This document shows positions 47,986 to 64,000 of a stretch of 64,000 nt of DNA, one piece after another (within the stretch, counting starts at the first letter, position 1; each line of letters opens with the position of its first letter). The DNA is from the human T2T-CHM13v2.0 reference genome, Homo sapiens. The position numbers were made by a program, and so were the translations under genes. The DNA lies in assembly GCF_009914755.1 (NCBI RefSeq), contig NC_060932.1; one strand, given 5' to 3'. The notes beneath the pieces were generated by a model. The model was not told where the DNA came from. It saw nothing but the letters and a program-made list of their open reading frames with translations, and ran no database searches.

Positions 47986-48373
47986 TTTTTAAAAAAAGAT
48001 TTTATTATCAAATATCTGTACATATTTTGGGGGTACATGTGATATTTTGATAGCTATATAGGAGGTATAATGAAGAAATCAGGGTAACGGGAATATCCAT
48101 CACCTCAAACATTTATCTTTTATGTGTGTGTGGAATATTAATATTATAATTCTTCTTTTTTAGCTATTTTGAAATACAAAATAAATTATTGTTAACTATA
48201 ATTTCCCTACTGCACTATTGAAGACTAAAACTTATTCCTTCTGTATTTTTGTGCCCCTTAACCAACTTCTCTTCATCCCCCTCTTCCCTTCCCAACCTTA
48301 GGTAACCACGTTTTACTCTCTGTCTCCATGAGATTTACTTTCTGAGTTCCTACATATGAATGAGAACATGTGA
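47986..48373 (-). mobile_element. L1MA-type 3' fragment
   Basis: ggggtacatgtgatattttga...atatccatcacctcaaacattt...atgagaacatg; TSD acctaaatttaa at 47974-47985 / 48374-48385. Confidence 0.85.
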
Positions 48374-50109
48374 TACCTAAATTTAAATATTATGCTGAAA
48401 AGAAAATATTTGCATAGACTCCTCCAACTCATTCCTGTGCTCATGCAGGTGTTCTCCCTTGAGGAATATTTATCTTTCTGCATCAGTCATCACTCTTGCC
48501 TCGGCCCTCATCTTCCCTGAGAGCTAAGTCCAGTGGATGAACTGAAGAGAAAGAAGGGAGTGCAGTATAATTGGCAAAAAGGTGATTAAGAGGCAGCAAT
48601 GGAACCAAGATGAAAATGGTTCTGTGAACTGAGGAAGTGGAGGCTCCTCTCCTCCAACCATGAGCTGAGATAAGTGAGGGCATCTTCTCTGGATAGACTG
48701 GCAAGGGTGCTGGGTCAGTTTCTGCAAAGTTGGAGAAGGCAGAGACCATGATGGTGTGTTACAGGGTCAGCCAGGGCCCTGCAAGCTCACAGTGGGGCAT
48801 GGGCTGTTAACAGCAATATAAAAAGGAGGGTGTTTGCTGACGTCTCTTATTTATATCTCTTATTTTTCTTCTAATGTCTATCCATGTTACATACATTAAG
48901 AATTATCATTTAGGAACATAGTGACTATGTTTTTTACAAATACAAGATTGAAAAGGCTGCATATTTCCCTTTCTACACTTGTCATTCTTATTCAGCTTAT
49001 TTGTATCTGTAGAGTATGCGTAATTTGTCCATGTGCAAAGATGCTGTGCGTGTGTAATAGACTATTGACTTTATCATATATTTGAGTAAAACTGAAGAAA
49101 TAATAAGCAACATTTTCAAAATTGTCAGAGTAATAATTTTAAATGTGCTACAAAGTAATACTGTATTCCAAATAAGTTATGCATTCATTTGCTTAACTTT
49201 CACCCATGAAATCTTTATATAATTACTGCTTGTACTTTTGAAATCCTTTCCTACTATGTAGTTTGTAAAAGCTCAAAATAGATACTGACAGCTAAAAGTA
49301 AAATAATCTAACCACGGTATATTTCAGCATTTAAGAAGGAAAAGTTCAAAACTAGTTGTTATCCTATTTATTTCTGTAAATGCAAAACTCTGTTAATGCT
49401 TTTAGGTGAAGTAGGCCCAAATAATAGGCTATGTTCTGTCATGTCTGACTAAAATAAAAATTCAGCCTAAGGAAACTCCTTTTGTAGACATTATTTGTTC
49501 TACAAAAAGTACAAAAGTTAGCCGGGCGTGGTGGTGCGCAGGGATTGTATCTCCATGCTGCTTACTCTAGGTTGCAGTATGTTCCCAACATATTTTAATG
49601 GTTTTAAAATGGTATTTCAATTTTTCCATCAGTTTGTATGCTCAGCCACCTGTATGTTTCCTCTGCAAGTTTCCAAAGTGAAGGAAAGGAAATTTTTTTT
49701 TTCTAATATTGTATTAATAGAGAAATCTAGATTTTTGGATTAATATTCTTTAATAAACACCGAGTTGAACAGAACGGGTTGCTCTCTAATTGATTATAAT
49801 TCCCACTGGAACACTTCTCCAGGTTGAATGAAGGTCCAGGTTTTTTTTCTAATTCTTCTTTCCAACCTCTATTCAGTTTCAGTTGAGAATCTAAGATTAC
49901 AGTGACCAATCAATTTTAGGCAGGAAGGGACTGCACTGATTAGCTCAACTGCCTCCTTTTCAGAGAAACGAAAGCTCACGGGCCGATTTAGCAAAGAGGG
50001 TGTATTCTTATCCGTGCTGTCTTATTTTTCAAGATTCCAGACTAGTCATAAAGCAAATGGTATAACTGCTAGCTGATGGGAATTTCTGGAATGGATTTAA
50101 GTGTGAGGA

Positions 50110-50305
50110 AGACAAAGGCCTAGTGGTAAGGTCAGCTCTGGAGGTAGATTACTTGGATTCCGATCAACTTAGTTTGTGTTCTTAGGCAAATTACATAACT
50201 TTTCTGTGCCTCAATTTCTTTGAAAGAGGGTGTGTAATAGTATCTATCTCACACTGTAATTGTGAGGATTAAGTGAGCTATTCTACCAAAAGTATTATAA
50301 CATGC
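50110..50305 (+). mobile_element. MIR
   Basis: ggcctagtggtaag...ttaggcaaattacataacttttctgtgcctcaatttc...ttgtgaggattaagtgag. Confidence 0.8.
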
Positions 50306-50310
50306 AGTTA

Positions 50311-50554
50311 AACTCTCAGTGAACAGTATTTTTACCCAAATTACAAATTGCGAAACCCTTAAGTCTTGAGCTTTCAAGGAGAGTTAGGAACCCTCCTATG
50401 GCATTGTCTTCTAAAAATCTGCTGCACAAAGTTGATGTTTGCATCAACTTTGGAGCTCAAATGGATTACTTTAATGAAGTTTGGGGCAAATGGATTATAT
50501 ATACATAGGAAGCCCTCCCCCAACACACAGAAAGTATGTGGACACGCAGAATTC
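50311..50554 (+). repeat. Left arm of 244-bp inverted repeat
   Basis: Reverse complement of 51904-52147 with 8 substitutions and no gaps. Also visible as paired ORFs MSFQGELGTLLWHC... on opposite strands. Confidence 0.97.
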
Positions 50555-50614
50555 AAAAGTCTGAGGGTGGCTGTGCTCAAGGGGTAAAGGGATGCTTAGG
50601 AAACTGCCGTTTCT

Positions 50615-50909
50615 GGCCGGGCCCGGTGGCTCACACCTGTAATCCCAGCACTTTGGGAGGCCGAAGCGGGTGGATCACGAGGTCAGCAGTTCAAGACTCA
50701 GCCTGGCCAAGATGGTGAAACCCCGTCTCTACTAAAAATACAAAAATTAGCCGGGCGTGGTGGTGGGCGCTTGTAATCCCAGCTACTCGGAAGGCTGTGG
50801 CAGATAATTGCTTGAACCCGTGAGGCGGAGGTTGCAGTGAGCCGAGATCTTCCCACTGCACTCCAGCCTGGGGAACAGAGCGAGACTCCGTCTCAAAACA
50901 AACAAACAA
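50615..50909 (+). mobile_element. AluS (Sg-like), CpG-rich
   Basis: ggatcacgaggtcagcagttcaagac; (CAAA)n tail; imperfect TSD aaactgccgtttct at 50601-50614 / aaactgcctttttct at 50910-50924. Confidence 0.95.
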
Positions 50910-51067
50910 AAACTGCCTTTTTCTCCTAGGAGGAAGGCGGGACCTTCAATGAGGGTGGCTGGCTACCAAAGAACTAAACTTTAACACAGAAAAGGTGAGT
51001 CGGTCTCCCTGAGACCACAGGCGTCCAACCCAGGCCCACCTCCCACCGCCTGGAAGGCCCAGGTGTG

Positions 51068-51119
51068 ACTGGAGGGCGACTGAAAGGGTCAGACCATGTG
51101 ACTGTTCTCAACTTTGGGC
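51068..51119 (+). repeat. Left arm of inner 52-bp inverted repeat
   Basis: Matches reverse complement of 51646-51696 (in exon 1) at 45/52 positions: 6 substitutions and 1 gap. Confidence 0.85.
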
Positions 51120-51539
51120 TTTTACACAGCAGTTTCAAAGACAAAGGGGCTTTTCAGCTAGGTTTGGTTTGCCGCCCTCCTCTTCCCAGGCCCAAGCTTG
51201 TTCCCCAATGTCCCCAGCGATGCTTGGGACGTCCCTTAGTTCTCCCCTTTCTTGGGGGGACCACCCCGCGCCTCTAGGTTGTCTTCCGTCCCTCCTAGAC
51301 AGAGGTGGATTGCCGCGACATTTCAGGGAGGAGAAATGGAGGGGCGAGGAGGGCAAAGACGCCCTACTAATCTCCCATCTTCAGAACGCGTCCCACCACG
51401 CCCGCGAGGCCCCCTCTGGCTACAGCCCTCACCGCGCTTCCTCCTCGTGCCGCATCCTCGGCAGGGGGGAGGGGCGCGGTGCGGCCGGCGCTCTCTGATT
51501 GGCTGCCGCGTCGGCGATCCACGCCACAATTGTTCCCTA

Positions 51540-51765
51540 AGACCGTCTGCCGCCAGCGAGCGCCAGGTGCGGAGCGGGCGTTAGAAGTTGCTGGCAGTCA
51601 GAGGCAGGGGAGCTGTCACTCGCGGCGAGCCGGGCGGCGGCCAGGGCGCAAAGTTGAGAGCAGTCTCTAGTCTGAGCCTTTCAGTCGCCTTCCAGTATCA
51701 TCAGTACCACGGGCTCCACCTTGCTGCGGCCCCTCAGCAACCCAGTGCACCTGCCACTCGACCAG
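51540..51765 (+). other. Probable non-coding first exon of an unidentified + strand gene
   Basis: Directly downstream of the CCAAT/GC boxes; no ATG; ends at donor CAG|gtaggt (intron starts 51766). The TSS is an estimate. Confidence 0.65.
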
Positions 51766-51903
51766 GTAGGTAGGCCGAGGCACCCGGGCGTCGGTCATCG
51801 CGCCTTCGCCGCCCTTTGCGGCCGCGGTACTGCCAGAGCAGGGGGGCCTGGGAGAGGTGTGGGGATTGGGGCCGGTCTCTCGGTGCCCTCCTCCCGCCGC
51901 CGG

Positions 51904-52147
51904 GAATTCTGCGTGTCCACGTACCTTCTGTGTGTTGGGGGAGGGGTTCCTATGTGTATATAATCCATTTGCCCCAAACTTCATAAAAGTAATCCATTTG
52001 AGCTCCAAAGTTGATGCAGACATCAACTTTGTGCAGCAGATTTTTAGAAGACAATGCCATAGGAGGGTTCCTAACTCTCCTTGAAAGCTCAAGACTTAAG
52101 GGTTTGGCAGTTTGTAATTTGGGTAAAAATACTGTTCACTGAGAGTT
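51904..52147 (-). repeat. Right arm of 244-bp inverted repeat, inside the CpG island / intron 1
   Basis: Abrupt drop in CpG content; inverted copy of 50311-50554. Confidence 0.97.
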
Positions 52148-52189
52148 GAACAGGGAGGCGAAGACAACTTTGTTTTTTCCCGGGAGAGC

Positions 52190-52527
52190 CCTCGCTCGGA
52201 AGTGCCTCCTCCCTCCTTCTGCGGCTTGCGCCCCAAGACCTTCATCCGCCGCCGGGGCCGGGGTGGGCCGGGCGTTGGTGCCGGCGACAGCCCCCGGGGA
52301 AGGTCTTCATACAGACTTGAGGGTGTGCGTGCTGGTCCCTGCCCTCCGCCGCAGCGGGGCTGGGACTCAGCAGTCGGGTCCCGGAGCTGCCTTTGGTGCG
52401 CACGGGCGCGCACGGGCTGGGGTGTAGACGGGGCGCGGAAGGCTGTGCTTCGCGGAGGCCTGCGTGGTGGTGCCTGCCCGGAGCGTGGCTCTGAGCGACC
52501 ACTGGAGAGGCTGATGCATGGGTCTAG
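52190..52527 (+). other. Candidate alternative first exon in the downstream half of the CpG island
   Basis: ETS-like cggaagtg at about 52197; donor TAG|gtgaga at 52528. Start unknown. Confidence 0.35.
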
Positions 52528-54009
52528 GTGAGAACGGTGCATTAGCGATGGCGTTGATGGGTGCGAGGGGGCACAGAGAGGCCTAAGTGCTGCTGCACTT
52601 TGGGGACAGTTTGCATTGGAGTGTGGTTTAAGGGACACAGAGGCAACAGTTTCGAGGAGGGCAGAGAGGTTATGAAGAAAAGTCAGAGGGATTTATTCCC
52701 AGGATTCTAGCTGAGAAAGTTGCATCCTTGTAGATAGAAGCAGCCACTTTTACCTCCTGGCCCAACCCTCAAAAAAGCACTTGGCAGTGTCTATGGAAGG
52801 GTGGCATTTAAATGAGGCCAACGAGTCTGATGGTGAAAGGGCCTAACGGTTACTGAGAAATCAACAGTATTGTGATGGGAAAAGCAGCGCCATTTTTATT
52901 CAGCAAAGAAAGTTTGGAAGTATTTTATTGTGAGAACTGAGGATAAGATTTAAGGAAGTTGTTGATGGGGTGTGTGGGGGTAGAGTTAGGTGATTGCTGT
53001 AGCCTCAGGCTAAAGCTAGTTGACTTTGGAAATTTTGCTTACAATTATTTCAAGCATACTTGCACTTTACACGGGATACTGGTTCAAGGTCCTTAGCTAG
53101 AATGTGCTCCTGTTGTTTAATCTTCAGGGATTTCATTTATAATATAGGATTCCCCCTTGTCCAGACGACTTTTCCTAGCAGCAAGCTGGAAACCTGACAT
53201 TAGGGTACAGGTTGCCGTGTGCTTTACTGTTTAAAATAAAATAAAGTATGTGGAAGGAGTGTAAAATAATTCTGCCTTCTGTTGAAATCTCATATTGCTG
53301 TCATAACTTCCAGTTAAATAGTAAAGTACCTATCCCCACCTACCTTCAACAGCAGTTATAATGTGTATCATGCAAATAAAGTATTGGTAATGAAATTAAT
53401 CGTGTATTTGAAGAAAACACTATTCTCTGTTTATTAATAAATTGATCAGAATTTAGAGTTTTTCATCTTCTCAGCACTGTGGAGGATCCTCTTTGTTTTC
53501 CACACTGACATGCAGTGTATGACCTTTTAGCATATCACACTCCTGATTAAATAGGCTGCTGACAATGTATCAGCAAATGCAAACATTTTGCTGATGAGGG
53601 GCAAGGGAGATAGGCGTATATATTTACATTTCTTTTAGGGAGACAAGCATATATTCACATTCTGTCTTTCTCTTCCCCCTCTTACTTTCCCTTCTCCCAA
53701 CCCCACGTCTGCCATAGGCTTACCCTCCGTCCCATGCCGAAATATTTTCTTGACTGTGCTAATAACACCTTTTAATTTATATAATGTGTATAAGTTTTTA
53801 AAAGTGATTTGATAGTAATGAACTCATTTAAACATATCAGCAACCAGAGAAAGTTCTTTTTCAGTACTGAAATAAGCAGGAGAATCAAGAGAAGGAGACA
53901 GGACTTAAAAATTTTTGACATCCTTCTTTATTTAGTCAAAGGTCTTGAGTTGGTACCTTGGGACTACTATAAATTTGTACAGCCACGTATAGCCCTAATT
54001 TGTGTAGTA

Positions 54010-55510
<1,501 letters not shown>

Positions 55511-56506
55511 TATTTTCAGTTGTTTTCTATTTGAGCAAGTCTTGGGAATATTTGATTAATACCACTCAAGCCTTAACTTTTCATACCGATAATAAATTGT
55601 TTCTTTGACGCACCTAAGAATTGACTTTCTAGTTGATGAAGTTCTTGGAATAACTGAAAACTCACATTGTAAAATTGGATGAATAAAATCATTTAGCTAT
55701 CATTTTAAAGTTGAGCATTTTATAGAACATAGAACATTTTTATAATGTAAATAGTCCAGGTTGAGAGAAAGCTTATGAATTTGTTGTAATCAGATAGTGT
55801 GAGTTAACAGGAAAAAGACACATCAGGAAATGAAAAGTGCAAAAATATAACATCAGTTTATTAATTTGGTATGAGCAAATTAACAGTGTTTTGAAAAATT
55901 AGGAAATTATAAAAGTAGTTATTTGATGTCAGATGAAGAAAAGAACTTTAGTGTAAGAAAAACAGTTAACTTTTTACTAGAGTAAGTGTAGAATTTATGA
56001 GATGATAGAAATTAATGGTCTGTGTGGAATGTAAGAATATGCCTTGCAGGGCCAGGTAGCAGAAAGGAGGGAGTGTTTTGCAATAAGCCTGAGGCCGGGG
56101 AAGGAAAAGGAGCAAAAGATCTTGCCATAGACTCCTGGATTGTTTAATCATTACTGAGAAGTCCAGAGTGACCTTGAGGTAGCCATAGTATTTGTTCATT
56201 AGGCCTTAAATCTTAAGAAAAATATAGAATCTATTATTAAGTGAGGTTACACCATGCTTTAAGATAGGAAGTATCTAGCATCTGAGGTTTGCCTTTGTAG
56301 GCCTTGCTTTCCAGATGATTTTATTTCTAGGGTAATGTTTAGTAGGTGGTTATGATTAAAGGAATATATGGAGAGAAGGTTTTGAGGAAGGAATTGGACT
56401 AAGGGAGACCTGTGCCATGAAAAAGGGCCAGATATGCAATTTAGAAGACACCAGTATCATTGAACATATTTGTATTTTTTATTAGTTTCTGATGTGCTGA
56501 TGTTCA

Positions 56507-57032
<526 letters not shown>

Positions 57033-57907
57033 TTATGAAATAAAAACATATAACTGAAAGTTTAAAAATCACTCATTTTCCTTCACTCCAGAGAAAACTT
57101 TTGTTAATTTTTTTAGAATGCGTGTGTATATTGAAACAAAATTAGAGTCACACTGAATATAAAGTTTCTGTAATACAGCCACCATATTGTGAGGAACCTC
57201 AGGGCATAAAAAGATGCCTTGTATAGGTGTTTGAACCTCCAGGCCCCACCAAAGTCTCAGGTGACAGCCAGCATCCATCATCTGATATATGAGTTAGTGA
57301 GCCTTTAGATAATACCAGTCCCTGGCTGATGGCAAATAGAGAAGCAATGAGTTATCCATGCTGAACCATGCCAAATTGCAGATTCCAGAGCAAAAGAAAT
57401 GTTAGTGTTTGCGGCCACCAAATTCAAGGGTATTTCTTAGGTCATCAGAGTATTCATTTTGCAATCATATATTTTAAAATAATTGTAATTGAATTATAAC
57501 ATATATGGTGAAATGCATAGACCTGAAGTGTGTAGTTTGATCAATTTTGACAAATGTGTACACTTGCGTAACTCACACTTTGTAACCCTTGTAAAGGTGA
57601 ACATAGTAGACCAGAGTGAGCAAGGTGTAAGTATTAGATGATGAGTGAAAGAGATTGGGAGGCCTTTGGTTATAATAAAAATATCATAGGAAGCCATCGG
57701 ATTTTTAGAAATACACGTTGTATTTTAGAAAAGTTTTAAATTTACAGAAAGTTGTGAAAATAGTAGAGAGACTTCCCAAATAACTTACATCCAGTTTTTG
57801 CTGTTGTTAACGTGTTATATTAGTATTGTCATTTGTCGCAACTTGTGATACATTATTATTGACTAAATTCTATACTTGATTGATTTCTTTAGTTTTTACT
57901 TAAGGTC

Positions 57908-58286
57908 TGTATTAGTTAGCTGCCGTAACAAAATACCATAGACTGTGTGGATTAAACAACAGAAATTTATTTTTTCACAGATCTGGAGGCTGGAACTCTG
58001 AGATCTGGGTGCCAGCATGATTGGGTTCCAGTGAGGACTCTCTTCCTGGCTTGCAGAGGGGCACAGTCCCCTTTCCTAGGTGTGTTCTTGCTGAAAGAGA
58101 GAAAGAACAAGGTCTCTGTGTCTCTTTATAAGGGCACTAATCCCTTCAGGCCAAGGCCCTGCCCTCAGGACTTTATTGAATCCTGATTACCTCCCAAATG
58201 CCCTATCTCCAAATACCATTACATTCGGGGTTAAAGCTTCAACATATGAAGATTCTGGGCGGGCCACAAACATGCAGTTTATAACA
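57908..58286 (-). mobile_element. MaLR MLT1A-type solo LTR inserted in an old L1 fragment
   Basis: tgtattagtt...gccgtaacaaaataccatagactg...ggaggctggaa...ttataagggcactaatccc...gcagtttataaca; flanked by aggtc on both sides. Confidence 0.85.
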
Positions 58287-58620
58287 AGGTCCTTTTTGTG
58301 TTCCTGTATCTTATGTAGGTTACCATATTACATTTAGTCGTTGTGTCTCCTTAGCTTCCTTTAGACTGTGGCAGTTTCTCAGACTTTCCTTTCTTTTTTG
58401 TTAACCTTGTCAGCTTTGAGGACTACTGGTCATGCATTTTGTAGAATGTCCCTCAAGTGGGATTTATCAAATGTATTTCTTATGATGTGTCTGGTCTTAT
58501 GGGTGTTTGGGAGGAAGACCACAAAGATGAAGTGTCGTTTTCATCACATCATACAAAGGGTATGTGCTTTCAGTGTGACTGATCATTGTTGATGTTAATT
58601 TGGTCACCTGGCTGAGGTAG

Positions 58621-58912
58621 TGAAGCAGGATAATTTCCCTGACCCCTTTGCTGGTGGGAACTGAGATGTGGGTGCCGGAAGTAGCCGGCCACTTAGGTGC
58701 TGGTAGGGGCAGACCCCACTAACTGGAACCCCCTGTGCTCAACCCCCCGTGGGAGGGAACACACAGGTAAGTGAGCATAGGAGCCGGGTTGAGTGCTTTT
58801 GGGTGCCGGCAGGAGCAAAACTCTGTGTGGGCCCCGTGGCCCCAGAAGGAGTGTTACAGTCAGTGCTCTTTTAGCTTTGCCATCCATGGACAGTTTAAAT
58901 GTTAACAGCTTA
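58621..58912 (-). mobile_element. ERV1 LTR fragment (MER48/MER50-like)
   Basis: tgaagcaggataatttccctgacccc...gtgttacagtcagtgctcttttagctttgcc...aatgttaacagct. Confidence 0.65.
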
Positions 58913-59480
58913 GTGGAAGGTAAATGTGACAGCCTTTTTGCACCTGCCTGGAAGAGAAGTGGCTGTGGAATATGGGAAAGGGTGAATATGAAAGATTTTC
59001 CTTTCGACTGTGTTAAGTTTCAGATGCTTGCTATACTCTGAAGTAGAAATGTGGAGACCATTGAAAATGTGAGTCTGGAGTTCAGGGTATGGGGCAGGAC
59101 TCAAGATTCTATTTGGAGGTTGCACATTTTATCTTTAAAGGATTCTGTTGTATTTTTCAGAGTAAGAATTTCGTTTGATAGAATAAAGAGCCTGTGGTCA
59201 TTTGAGTAGAATGATGAGAAAAATTTAAATCAAACTTGTTTTTTTCCTGAAAGCATTGTGAATAAAGATAACAGTAAAATATAGGTGATTTTCAATCAGC
59301 ATCAGTGACCCATCTGTATCTGACCTGAGTCCCAGCTGATATAGCCAGTTGAATAGCAGAAAATTCAGAATTTGATTTGCATGTCTTAAAGCTATTGAGA
59401 AGAAAAATTAGACATTTAATTTTTTCCCCCTAAGGAACTATGTGCATATATTTTTGAGCCTTACCATTTTTTTTTCTTAG

Positions 59481-59646
59481 AGGGAAAGCAGTCAGGAGTG
59501 GGAGGCCTCTGAACAAGCTGTATTTTGTGTAGCCGCCAGCTTCCATCTTTCTCCAGGCAGAACGCTGGCCCTCAGCACATCTTTCTGCTTCCCCTCGGTC
59601 AGACCACCGAGAACTGCCGCTGTCCTGTCTGACTCCTCCTGTTTTG
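59481..59646 (+). other. Probable internal non-coding (5'UTR) exon, 166 nt
   Basis: Acceptor (t)9cttag|A and donor TTG|gtgagt; GC-richer unique sequence within AT-rich intron; no ATG; possible internal acceptor tttctccag near 59556. Confidence 0.65.
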
Positions 59647-60124
59647 GTGAGTAATATAGGGAGGCTGAGGGTTTGATATTATTTGGCTCCATATTTTAAA
59701 AAGATATTTGGTAGTTTATGTAAAATTACGTCTAATTTGATCAGTACCACTTATAACTTTAAGTTGTTGTACAGAAATTGATCCTTTATTATTTAGAAAA
59801 TAGACTTTAAAGTTAATAATATTGGGAGAATTCCTGGTTCTTTCCTTTTCCCTTCCCTCTCTTTTAGTTCTTTATTTATTTTTAGAGCTCTTTGTACTGG
59901 TACATCTTCCCTTTCCTGGGGAGTTGATTTTAAAAATTAGATTTGCAAGAGGTATCCTTTTAGAGGATGATGTAAGCCACTTGTACTCAAACTTAAGGAA
60001 AATAATTTTTTAAGTTCCCTGTGTGCCCTTTTTAGATCCCATCCCAGAGAGGAGTGACTTCTGCTAGATTGTGTTATTTCCTTTCTTTCTTCATAGTGTT
60101 GTCAACAAATATATATATGTATGT

Positions 60125-61540
<1,416 letters not shown>

Positions 61541-61681
61541 TAGCTAATCTATGGGGAGTTTTATTCTTCCTTACCTTATATAGACATATTTTCAATGAAA
61601 AGATAATCTGATTTATGTATTTATAAAAATAAATGTATATTTTATATCTATATCATATAATTTTACATCTATATCATATAA

Positions 61682-61993
<312 letters not shown>

Positions 61994-62369
61994 TGTATCA
62001 TATAATTTGGATCAAACTCTAAATGTAGCCAGGACATCAGTGGCAGGCTATATTCAGCACTGATGGGAGTCTCAGTGACCTGTAAAGCCTATGTCTCTCT
62101 ACACACTTCCTAGTTTGCTCTGCATGAGTCTCTGACCATGCAAATAGCTATATTGTGGCTATACTGTGCAGACAACTCATTCTATTTCAATTTTTTTCCA
62201 TGACTTATTATTCAAAATAATGTGATACAATAAAAATCAGATTTGCTATGGTCCCTGACCTCAGGTTTGCTTAGAGTCTCTGCAGGGGTTACAGAGAAGT
62301 AATTAGGAAATCAGAAATCAGTGTGGTTAATGTTCTGATGAGGAGGCAACAGGTCCTCATGAGAACAGA

Positions 62370-62470
62370 GAGAAGAGGTATCTGTTTTATTCTCTGCATC
62401 TCTAGTACCTAGTACAGGACCTGGCACATAGTAGGGTCTCACTAAATCTTTGTTGAATGAATGAATAAAC
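62370..62470 (+). mobile_element. L2 3' end
   Basis: acctagtacaggacctggcacatagtagg...tgttgaatgaatgaat. Confidence 0.8.
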
Positions 62471-62979
62471 TCAGCTGGGTGATCACAGGGTCACTTTTGG
62501 GGAAAACTTATGTCTGAGCCAAGTTATTGATATCTACAGGCAGTAAATGAATGGAGGGAATTCTCTCATGTGGATGCAATAAAATTCAGTGTCATAGAAG
62601 AACACAAAGCTTAGCAATCTAAATAGTTATCTAAAGCTGTCTTATTTGCAAGTGGGGAGTGGTTTTCAAAAGTGATTGCAGACTGAAGGCTAAGCAGAAG
62701 TAACTCTGACTAAAGTATGTATTGGACAAGGTTAGATGAGAACCGGAATTGATTTTATGAATTAGCATTTTTGGTTCTGGCTGTTGTATTTACCATTGCT
62801 AAGTTTAGTTTTTAACATATCTTAAAAATAATGATCTTCAAATGAATGAGAAGTATTTTTTGTGAAGCATGGTACAGCTTTCTCCAGGTCTTAACTACTA
62901 GTCTTATTCATATTATCTTTGCTTTAAAACAAAACTTTTCTATGTTCTAAATATATCTGTGATAAATCATGAGTTTACC

Positions 62980-63225
62980 ACTAATAATGGTGGGTCATAT
63001 ATTTGTGTTTTCATATGCCAGGTACTGTATTTAGAGCCTGCCATGGGTTATCTCATTTAATCCGGACAGTGGCCTGTGTGTAAGGAAACCAAACCTAGGG
63101 CTCCCATTTTATAGAAGAGGCAACTAAGTTTTGGGGAAGTTAGATAGTGTGTACCCAAGGTCACTTAGGTAAGCCTAGGACTCACATTTGAATCTAAGTC
63201 TGTCTGACTTCATTTAACCACTAAG
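62980..63225 (-). mobile_element. MIR
   Basis: tatgccaggtactg...atctcatttaatcc...cccattttatagaagaggcaactaag...cccaaggtcac...tttgaatctaagtctgtctgact. Confidence 0.8.
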
Positions 63226-63804
63226 CTATATGTGCTCTTTCCAATGTTTCATATGTCTTATTGTTAAACAAAAAAGGCCCAGGATTTCGTTTTACTTGTG
63301 TATAGATCCTTAGAAAGTTCATCAGTTAAATGAGGAAAGAGTTTGTTGTGAAATAACATATTAAGACTCCCCTAAAGGCAAATTACAGAAACCCACTTTA
63401 AACTAGCCGGCATGGCTGGATGCAGATGCTCCAACAATAAATACTGTGCTCTTCTTCTCTGTGTCTCCTCCTTTCTCCCCTTCCTCTTTCCCCCTCCCTC
63501 CTTATCCCACTGCCCCATTCCCTCTCTCATTCTGCTTTTCTTTGAGTGTTGGCCCATTCTTTCTTGTAACAGAAGCAGCCCCAATTGAAACCAGCTCCAC
63601 CTGTGATCCTAGGAAGAGAGAGCATCTTCTCTGGGAAGAAATGCCCTGGGGAAGACTCTTGGTCATGGGGACTGGGCGCTGTGACAGGACTTCGTGAACT
63701 ACATGGATTGTAGCTGTTGGGGTGACAACATATCCATACTTCATCTTGATAAGACATATCATTTGATGGTTGAAAGCTGTAATTATTTTAAGATAATACA
63801 CAAT

Positions 63805-64000
63805 AGATTTTAATAGCTTTATCAAGATATAATTCACATACCATAGGACTTACCCATTTAAAGTGTACAGTTCAATGGTTTTAATGTATTCACAGTTGTG
63901 CAGCTATCACCACTGTCTAATCTGTAACATTTCCATCACCAAAAGAAACTTTGCACCTATTAGCAGTCACTCCCCATTTTTCCCAAGCCCCTCAGCCTTA
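63805..64000 (-). mobile_element. L1MB-type 3' end, runs off the window
   Basis: agctttatcaagatataattcacataccat...aaagtgtacagttcaatgg...cagtcactcccc. Confidence 0.85.

What the first reader, a model, noticed from the sequence alone, without database searches (positions are those of the whole stretch)
51068..51696. Second, older inverted repeat nested on nearly the same symmetry axis
Seen: 51068-51119 is an inverted copy (45/52) of 51646-51696, which lies within exon 1. The gap between inner and outer arms is 207 bp on the right. On the left it is 513 bp, or 203 bp after removing the Alu plus one TSD copy (310 bp). The two repeats are therefore almost concentric around about 51382. The two roughly 205-bp intervals show no similarity that I can see. 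Inference: either the remains of an old promoter-centred palindrome, or repeated copying between arms in a fold-back configuration. The different divergences (about 13% and 3%) suggest separate events or ongoing arm conversion.
Basis: partly seen in the sequence, partly recalled or inferred. Interest (0 to 1): 0.7.

Follow-up and report, generated by a model that had tools for sequence, protein, structure and literature searches.

The report
Nested inverted copies in MBOAT2 duplicate
In an old, unannotated partial copy of the MBOAT2 gene on chromosome 8, two upstream stretches were pasted back-to-front on the far side of the promoter, one of them in place of the start codon, likely by DNA-repair template switching, and the older pair likely guided where the younger one formed.

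Summary
In detail: inner arms 45/52 (0 of 2000 shuffles reach the score), outer arms 239/248, Alu-less spacers 204 vs 207 bp, spacers unrelated. The locus is the 5' end of an unannotated ~53-kb, 17%-diverged duplicate of MBOAT2 (chr2), which serves as outgroup. The chr2 copy has both left arms and both spacers but lacks both right arms and the Alu. So this is not a decayed palindrome: both right arms are inverted insertions copied from 0.5 and 1.35 kb upstream. The inner one replaced the ATG. A third such insertion lies 15 kb downstream (3 of 11 chr8-only stretches, 0 of 15 on chr2). The outer copy is about one-fifth the age of the duplication; the inner cannot be told from the duplication's age. 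No sign of arm conversion was found. The 3-nt register match has a chance of about 0.5-4%, but it needs the Alu to be younger than the outer copy, and that order is unresolved (Alu 1.8-4.3% diverged, arms 1.8% each). Verdict: a known mutational class (templated insertion) in an undescribed locus, with a plausible but unproven 'one inverted repeat seeds the next' geometry.

The parts
49112..64000 (+). 5' part of an unannotated, unprocessed partial duplicate of MBOAT2 (chr2:8.96-9.035 Mb, minus strand); continues outside the window to about T2T chr8:57,575,900
   Evidence: parent named
50307..50554 (+). Outer left arm = template; ancestral, present in the chr2 parent
50601..50921 (+). Alu (body 50615-50896) with 12-bp TSD 50601-50612 / 50910-50921; absent from chr2; closest relative at chr14:97,318,745
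50555..51067 (+). Left spacer: 204 bp of parent sequence plus the 309-bp Alu insertion
51068..51119 (+). Inner left arm = template; ancestral, present in the chr2 parent
51120..51645 (+). Loop: duplicated MBOAT2 promoter, with GC-box-like 51466-51475 and inverted CCAAT 51498-51502 kept in both copies; about 250 bp of parent 5' UTR missing between 51611 and 51697
   Evidence: motif names are from my own knowledge
51646..51696 (-). Inner right arm = inverted templated insertion that replaced the MBOAT2 start codon and codon 2
51697..51765 (+). Remnant of MBOAT2 coding exon 1 (codons 3-25), followed by a GT donor at 51766
51697..51903 (+). Right spacer, 207 bp, collinear with chr2
51904..52151 (-). 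Outer right arm = inverted templated insertion into intron 1, with almost no loss of target sequence
51350..52600 (.). CpG island (GC 63%, CpG o/e 0.78), drifting towards AT relative to the parent

Best explanation
Both right-hand arms are inverted copies of upstream sequence inserted into an old partial duplicate of MBOAT2, likely made by two separate template-switch repair events, and the older inner repeat likely tethered the fold-back that placed the younger outer copy in register. Shown: the chr2 parent has the left arms and both spacers but not the right arms or the Alu; the inner copy sits where the ATG was; the outer copy is a clean insertion. Inferred, step 1 (old): a stalled or broken 3' end in the GC-rich 5' UTR annealed about 530 nt upstream on the opposite strand through 3-4 bases of imperfect homology, copied about 50 nt, and returned at codon 3 (switch order 3-2-1-4). 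Inferred, step 2 (about one-fifth the age of the duplication): an end at 51904 was held near the mirror position because the inner arms paired, primed on 3 shared bases, copied about 245 nt and rejoined. The Alu would then have inserted into the left spacer at about the same time or later. No selected function is implied.
For: The BLAST match to chr2 has holes at exactly the two right arms. Alignment shows the empty sites. The right arms carry left-arm states that differ from chr2: 7-8 columns inner, 30 substitutions plus 43 bases with no chr2 partner outer. Junction homology: 3 bp at the first outer junction, 3 of 4 at the first inner junction, like the microhomology and microhomeology of germline templated insertions (PMC8421209). 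The same signature occurs a third time in this duplicate: 3 of 11 chr8-only stretches vs 0 of 15 chr2-only. Ages: outer 9/248 vs source-chr2 34/204, p=3e-6; inner 7/52 vs 10/51, p=0.44. Register offset is 3 nt; chance 0.5-4% for template ranges of 1-3 kb, tolerance 3-10 nt, counting both Alu states. The inner stem forms in the predicted DNA minimum-energy fold of the pre-insertion strand, with or without the Alu.
Against: The register holds only without the Alu, and the Alu is at least as diverged as the outer arms: 5/282 private changes vs 9/496 per arm (p=1.0), and up to about 12/282 if it was the source of its chr14 sister. It may therefore be older. The fold does not pair the spacer ends in register. 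With a 500-bp range and 10-nt tolerance the chance rises to 8%. 3/11 vs 0/15 alone is p=0.063, and some chr2-only stretches are chr8 deletions. The age gap weakens to p=0.06-0.39 with a doubled local rate or clustered changes counted once. The second junction of each copy shows 0-1 bp homology in today's sequence. The size of the deletion at the inner event (about 18 or about 250 bp) is unresolved (p=0.19). There is one outgroup only and no other primate genome.
Confidence: 0.55

Rival explanations
1. Both right arms are templated inverted insertions, but independent of each other; the Alu was already present when the outer copy formed and the shared axis is a coincidence in a break-prone CpG island.
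For: The Alu's divergence (1.8-4.3%) equals or exceeds the per-arm outer divergence (1.8%). A third, unrelated inverted insertion exists 15 kb away, so such events recur here without a seed.
Against: It needs a 0.5-4% coincidence on top of the two events being nested within about 2 kb of a 53-kb duplicate. The Alu has no private CpG transitions while its sister has about 7, which fits (weakly) a young insertion into the island's edge.
Confidence: 0.26
2. One complex multi-switch event (fold-back copy, return, fold-back copy, return) made both arms at once; the long outer arms were later homogenised by conversion or inversion, the short inner arms were not.
For: It explains the register directly. 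Complex germline events with several switches are described (33 of 103 and 26 of 99 events, PMC8421209). The age gap is not significant under a doubled local rate.
Against: No divergent edges or gradient in the outer arms. Junctions are sharp and match the parent's empty site. The raw divergence difference has p=0.010.
Confidence: 0.1
3. The outer pair arose from a staggered-break inversion of the promoter segment that later re-inverted by recombination between the new arms.
For: Staggered breaks leave inverted duplications of unique sequence at inversion ends (PMC1885836). Human inversions with 140-285-bp repeats are listed as polymorphic (PMC13629690 Table S1). The outer insertion loses almost no target sequence.
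Against: It needs two events. The interior is in the parent's orientation. It does not explain the register. No matching candidate was found in that table with six number terms.
Confidence: 0.07
4. The arms are the surviving parts of an old promoter-centred palindrome whose middle decayed.
For: Only the concentric layout.
Against: Both spacers align collinearly to unique parent sequence at 74-79% and not to each other; the parent lacks both right arms.
Confidence: 0.02

Closest known systems
MMBIR-like templated insertions (MMB-TI; Osia et al. 2021, PMC8421209; passages and section 10 part 1 read)
   Same: Insertion copied in reverse from a nearby template, short junction homology or homeology, return to the original template, fixed in the germline.
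   Different: These copies are fixed and old, one is 248 bp from 1.35 kb away, and two share an axis; no such nesting appears in the passages read.
Short-range template switches, four-point model type 3-2-1-4 (Walker et al. 2021, PMC7954356; passages read)
   Same: Same order of switch points; leaves a single inverted repeat; one of the two commonest patterns there.
   Different: There the copied length has median 12 and maximum 128 nt within tens to hundreds of bases; here 51 and 248 nt at 0.5 and 1.35 kb.
Fold-back templated inversions at double-strand breaks in yeast (Yu et al. 2024, PMC11724301; abstract read)
   Same: A 3' end folds back on microhomology, synthesises, and is captured by end joining.
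   Different: Mostly 5-34 bp and adjacent to the break.
Small human inversions mediated by inverted repeats (PMC13629690; passages and Table S1 part 1 read)
   Same: Geometry of the outer pair (248-bp arms, 96%, 1349 bp apart) is in the size range of listed polymorphic inversions such as HsInv0045 and HsInv0147.
   Different: The arms are unique sequence, not SINEs; no inverted allele is known to me or was found in that table.
MBOAT2 (lysophospholipid acyltransferase 2), chr2p
   Same: Parent of the whole segment: promoter, exon 1 and an exon-3-like piece.
   Different: The copy lacks the ATG, most of the 5' UTR and exon 2; no later exons were found nearby; it has no row in the RefSeq table supplied.

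Membership tests
Templated inverted insertion (MMB-TI / 3-2-1-4 template switch) | Inserted sequence absent from the ancestral state | tested here: met
   chr2 parent lacks both right arms
Templated inverted insertion (MMB-TI / 3-2-1-4 template switch) | Insert is the reverse complement of a nearby template that is retained | tested here: met
   45/52 and 239/248; templates present in the parent
Templated inverted insertion (MMB-TI / 3-2-1-4 template switch) | Return to the original template after the copy | tested here: met
   Collinear alignment resumes at 51697 and about 52152
Templated inverted insertion (MMB-TI / 3-2-1-4 template switch) | Microhomology or microhomeology at junctions | tested here: inconclusive
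   3 bp and 3-of-4 bp at the two first junctions, 0-1 bp at the two second junctions; this much is common by chance and the junctions are old
Templated inverted insertion (MMB-TI / 3-2-1-4 template switch) | Enzymatic route (MMBIR, polymerase theta, fork switching) | not testable with these tools
   Sequence alone cannot separate them
Decayed palindrome | Sequence between conserved blocks is related across the axis or derives from one arm | tested here: not met
   Spacers unrelated to each other and each collinear with the parent
Inverted repeat under arm-to-arm gene conversion | Identity patches or divergent edges along the arms | tested here: not met
   KS p=0.62, longest run p=0.20; low power with 9 mismatches
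Inverted repeat under arm-to-arm gene conversion | Arms group by species across primates | not testable with these tools
   No other primate genome is held
IR-mediated polymorphic inversion | Inverted repeats of at least about 140 bp and over 90% identity | tested here: met
   248 bp, 96%; size range
IR-mediated polymorphic inversion | Both orientations observed | not testable with these tools
   One assembly only; no entry found in Table S1 of PMC13629690 with the terms used
Transposon terminal inverted repeats (MITE) | Interspersed copies elsewhere in the genome | tested here: not met
   50930-52300 matches only itself and the chr2 parent, 7 matches in all
Unprocessed (duplicated) pseudogene | Parent promoter, introns and exons in genomic order, with disabling lesions | tested here: met
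   Collinear chain of 39 blocks over about 53 kb; ATG and exon 2 missing

The most novel reading that the evidence does not exclude
Inverted repeats beget inverted repeats: a 51-bp scar fixed early in primate history later acted as a tether that aimed a second, 248-bp templated copy to the mirror position within 3 nt. The result is a concentric cassette around a retained MBOAT2-derived promoter that has lost its ATG, may now start a lncRNA, and may flip as an uncatalogued 1.35-kb inversion.
Probability: 0.3. Interest if true: 0.65.

Novelty: new member of a known kind. Interest (0 to 1): 0.4.

Why it matters
It is a dated natural record of repeated inverted template switching in one germline locus, readable because an in-genome parent preserves the ancestral state. 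If the shared axis is causal, it shows that one small repair scar can steer a later, larger one. That predicts an excess of concentric unique-sequence inverted repeats genome-wide, which can be tested with existing primate assemblies. It also identifies an unannotated ~53-kb MBOAT2 duplicate and the event that removed its start codon while sparing the promoter and splice donor, a possible route from a coding gene to a lncRNA promoter. If the axis is chance, it is an ordinary set of mutational scars.

Tried and rejected
Old palindrome: rejected by the parent. Transposon ends: rejected, no interspersed copies. Extension of the inner match inward with lenient scoring gave only a gapped 170/255 alignment adding little score; not counted. 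A scan of 15 chr8 and 9 chr2 small divergent clusters for inverted templates found none beyond the outer arm itself, so my idea of an extra event at 50371-50391 is dropped. The perfect hairpin at 50427-50452 is not counted: 3 such hairpins on chr8 (two being this one, copied) vs 4 on chr2. The three-way MAFFT alignment of the outer arm was poor in the middle (69 'shared' columns); the projection replaces it. Tandem repeats: none near the arms. PDB search of an out-of-frame peptide and the Pfam MBOAT genome search (no chr2 hit among 11) did not name the parent; searches did. None of the 17 of 64 homologous proteins I read came from the chr8 copy. A link to LINC01606 could not be shown: two promoter primers from PMC9052012 have no match on chr8. 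Earlier scan findings were not available, so nothing here rests on them.

Full report
Observation. The inner inverted repeat is real at the stated coordinates: 45 identities, 6 mismatches and 1 gap, with a score of 65 that none of 2000 dinucleotide shuffles approached (max 31). The outer pair is 50307-50554 / 51904-52151, 239/248. The Alu plus one 12-bp TSD is 309 bp, so the spacers are 204 bp (left, Alu removed) and 207 bp (right), and the two axes lie at 51382-51382.5 and 51383.5. The spacers are unrelated.

An outgroup inside the genome. A search of the window's own genome with 50930-52300 returned 7 matches: itself, its own arms, and one paralogue on chr2 at 9,027,049-9,028,344. That match has two holes, and they cover the two right arms. 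The chr2 locus encodes a 25-residue first exon whose named relatives are MBOAT2 / lysophospholipid acyltransferase 2, and the other MBOAT2 exons follow on the same strand. The duplicate starts at window 49112 and runs about 53 kb to about T2T chr8:57,575,900 as a collinear chain of 39 blocks with several large deletions, 34,600 aligned columns and a Jukes-Cantor distance of 0.168. None of the 12 chr8 Alu hits in this span lies inside an aligned block. From my own knowledge of primate divergences and Alu ages this points to an early-primate event; the date is inferred. Exon 2 falls in a deletion and an exon-3-like piece is kept. The supplied RefSeq table has no row for it.

What the arms are. 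The parent has both left arms in collinear position, both spacers, no Alu and no right arms. The outer right arm is a clean insertion at the start of intron 1, with 3 shared bases at its first junction. The inner right arm sits where the ATG and codon 2 were; the parent reading resumes at codon 3, position 51697. About 250 bp of 5' UTR is also missing. The best alignment puts 51624-51649 next to the parent's ATG, which would make the inner event an 18-bp replacement plus a separate deletion, but that placement is not significant (p=0.19). Unnamed mammalian translations keep a long stretch between promoter and ATG, so the loss is likely on the chr8 side. The right arms carry left-arm states that differ from chr2. 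In the four-point notation both events have the order 3-2-1-4, one of the two commonest patterns in great apes, though larger than the maximum of 128 nt reported there (PMC7954356, passages). They match the description of germline templated insertions with microhomology (PMC8421209, passages and section 10 part 1).

Recurrence. Of 11 chr8-only non-Alu stretches of 25-700 bp in the duplicate, 3 are inverted copies of sequence within 2.5 kb and 1 is a direct copy; of 15 chr2-only stretches, none is (p=0.063 for inverted, 0.022 for both). The L1-containing stretch 67440-73530 was left out of that chain. The third inverted copy is 91 bp at L031:2517-2607, from a template about 570 bp downstream. 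So the process recurs in this locus and does not need a seed.

Ages. Arm-to-arm versus template-to-chr2 differences are 9/248 vs 34/204 for the outer pair (p=3e-6), 7/52 vs 10/51 for the inner (p=0.44) and 14/89 vs 10/89 for the third (p=0.51). The outer copy is about one-fifth as old as the duplication; the inner and third may be nearly as old as it. Inner versus outer gives p=0.010, but p=0.06-0.39 if the island mutates twice as fast or the clustered changes are one event; divergence from chr2 is 22-25% in the island against 15-18% outside. Outer mismatches are uniform and evenly split between arms, which gives no sign of conversion, with low power.

The Alu. Only one other place in the genome matches its diagnostic 37-mer exactly, on chr14 (2 exact of 221 matches within 2 mismatches). 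Against 31 other Alus it has 5 private changes and no private CpG transition; the sister has 10, about 7 at CpG; about 7 more are shared by the pair and few others. Its age is therefore 1.8% if it is a daughter and up to 4.3% if it was the source, against 1.8% (0.8-3.4%) per outer arm. The order is open, and the concentric geometry depends on it.

Is the shared axis causal? Under independence, a register within 3-10 nt has probability 0.5-4% for template ranges of 1-3 kb, and up to 8% for 500 bp, counting both Alu states. The inner stem forms in the predicted fold of the pre-insertion strand, but the spacer ends do not pair in register. The tether is thus inferred: paired inner arms would hold the two spacers side by side and bring an end at 51904 near the mirror position. 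I put this at about 0.55, coincidence at 0.26, one complex event plus conversion at 0.10, and staggered-break inversion with reversion (PMC1885836, passages) at 0.07.

Consequences. The inner copy removed the start codon but left the CCAAT and GC boxes, the CpG island and the donor site. I recall that GENCODE's LINC01606 model starts near here; no call confirmed it. LINC01606 is described as testis-selective and as covering hg38 chr8:57,209,886 (PMC7735420 and PMC13684657, passages). A differentially methylated region at chr8:58,055,876-58,056,175 is listed in PMC4121369 (passage); that it is this island is my recollection, not tested. The outer pair has the size of repeats that flank listed polymorphic inversions; no entry for this locus was found among the 612 candidates with six number terms based on a recalled hg38 position.

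Novelty. The mutational class is known. I found no description of this locus: 0 papers hold both MBOAT2 and LINC01606; of 15 listed from 830 for MBOAT2 with duplication terms, only a sheep genome preprint names the gene (listing only); 15 of 38 listed for nested repeats and fold-back showed nothing on concentric pairs (listing only). Subscription journals and bioRxiv supplements were not searchable and may bear on this. Verdict: real, explained as templated insertions, new member of a known kind, with one open and testable twist. Interest 0.4.

Noticed in passing
L031:2517-2607 (T2T chr8:57,540,517-57,540,607), template L031:3180-3268: Third inverted templated insertion, 91 bp, 84% identical to its template and absent from chr2; as old as the duplication within error.
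   Followed up: yes
L031:2055-2216: Complex chr8-only cluster: a direct local duplication plus a 24-bp piece inverted relative to chr2.
   Followed up: partly
window 49112-64000 and L031-L034: Unannotated ~53-kb unprocessed partial MBOAT2 duplicate with deletions of about 4.9, 11.5 and 6.7 kb relative to chr2; exon 2 lost, exon 3-like piece at chr8:57,564,543-57,564,674.
   Followed up: yes
window 50615-50896 and G000:C14:97318745-97319039: The Alu and a chr14 Alu share rare changes and a (CAAA)n tail; the chr8 copy keeps 15 CpGs and has a T-run about 8 bp past its tail, so it may have been a source element.
   Followed up: partly
window 49499-49539: About 40 bp of Alu-internal sequence inserted relative to chr2, close to the 4.9-kb deletion junction at 49417; no significant local template.
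   Followed up: partly
window 50427-50452 and 52006-52031: Perfect 11-bp hairpin in both outer arms, absent from chr2; possibly a short template switch older than the outer copy, but not above background.
   Followed up: partly
window 51766-51773: A 4-bp duplication at the exon 1 donor gives two possible GT donors.
   Followed up: no
window 50910-51903: Strong AT-ward difference from the parent in the island (80:25 and 25:5 base exchanges) against near balance at the far end of the tested segment (62:60).
   Followed up: no
L031:3509-8760: A 5.3-kb element 92.5% identical to one inserted at a different site in the chr2 copy, likely two independent L1 insertions.
   Followed up: no
window 48017-48375: Interspersed repeat of about 360 bp with many 75-81% matches, partly outside the masked list supplied.
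   Followed up: no
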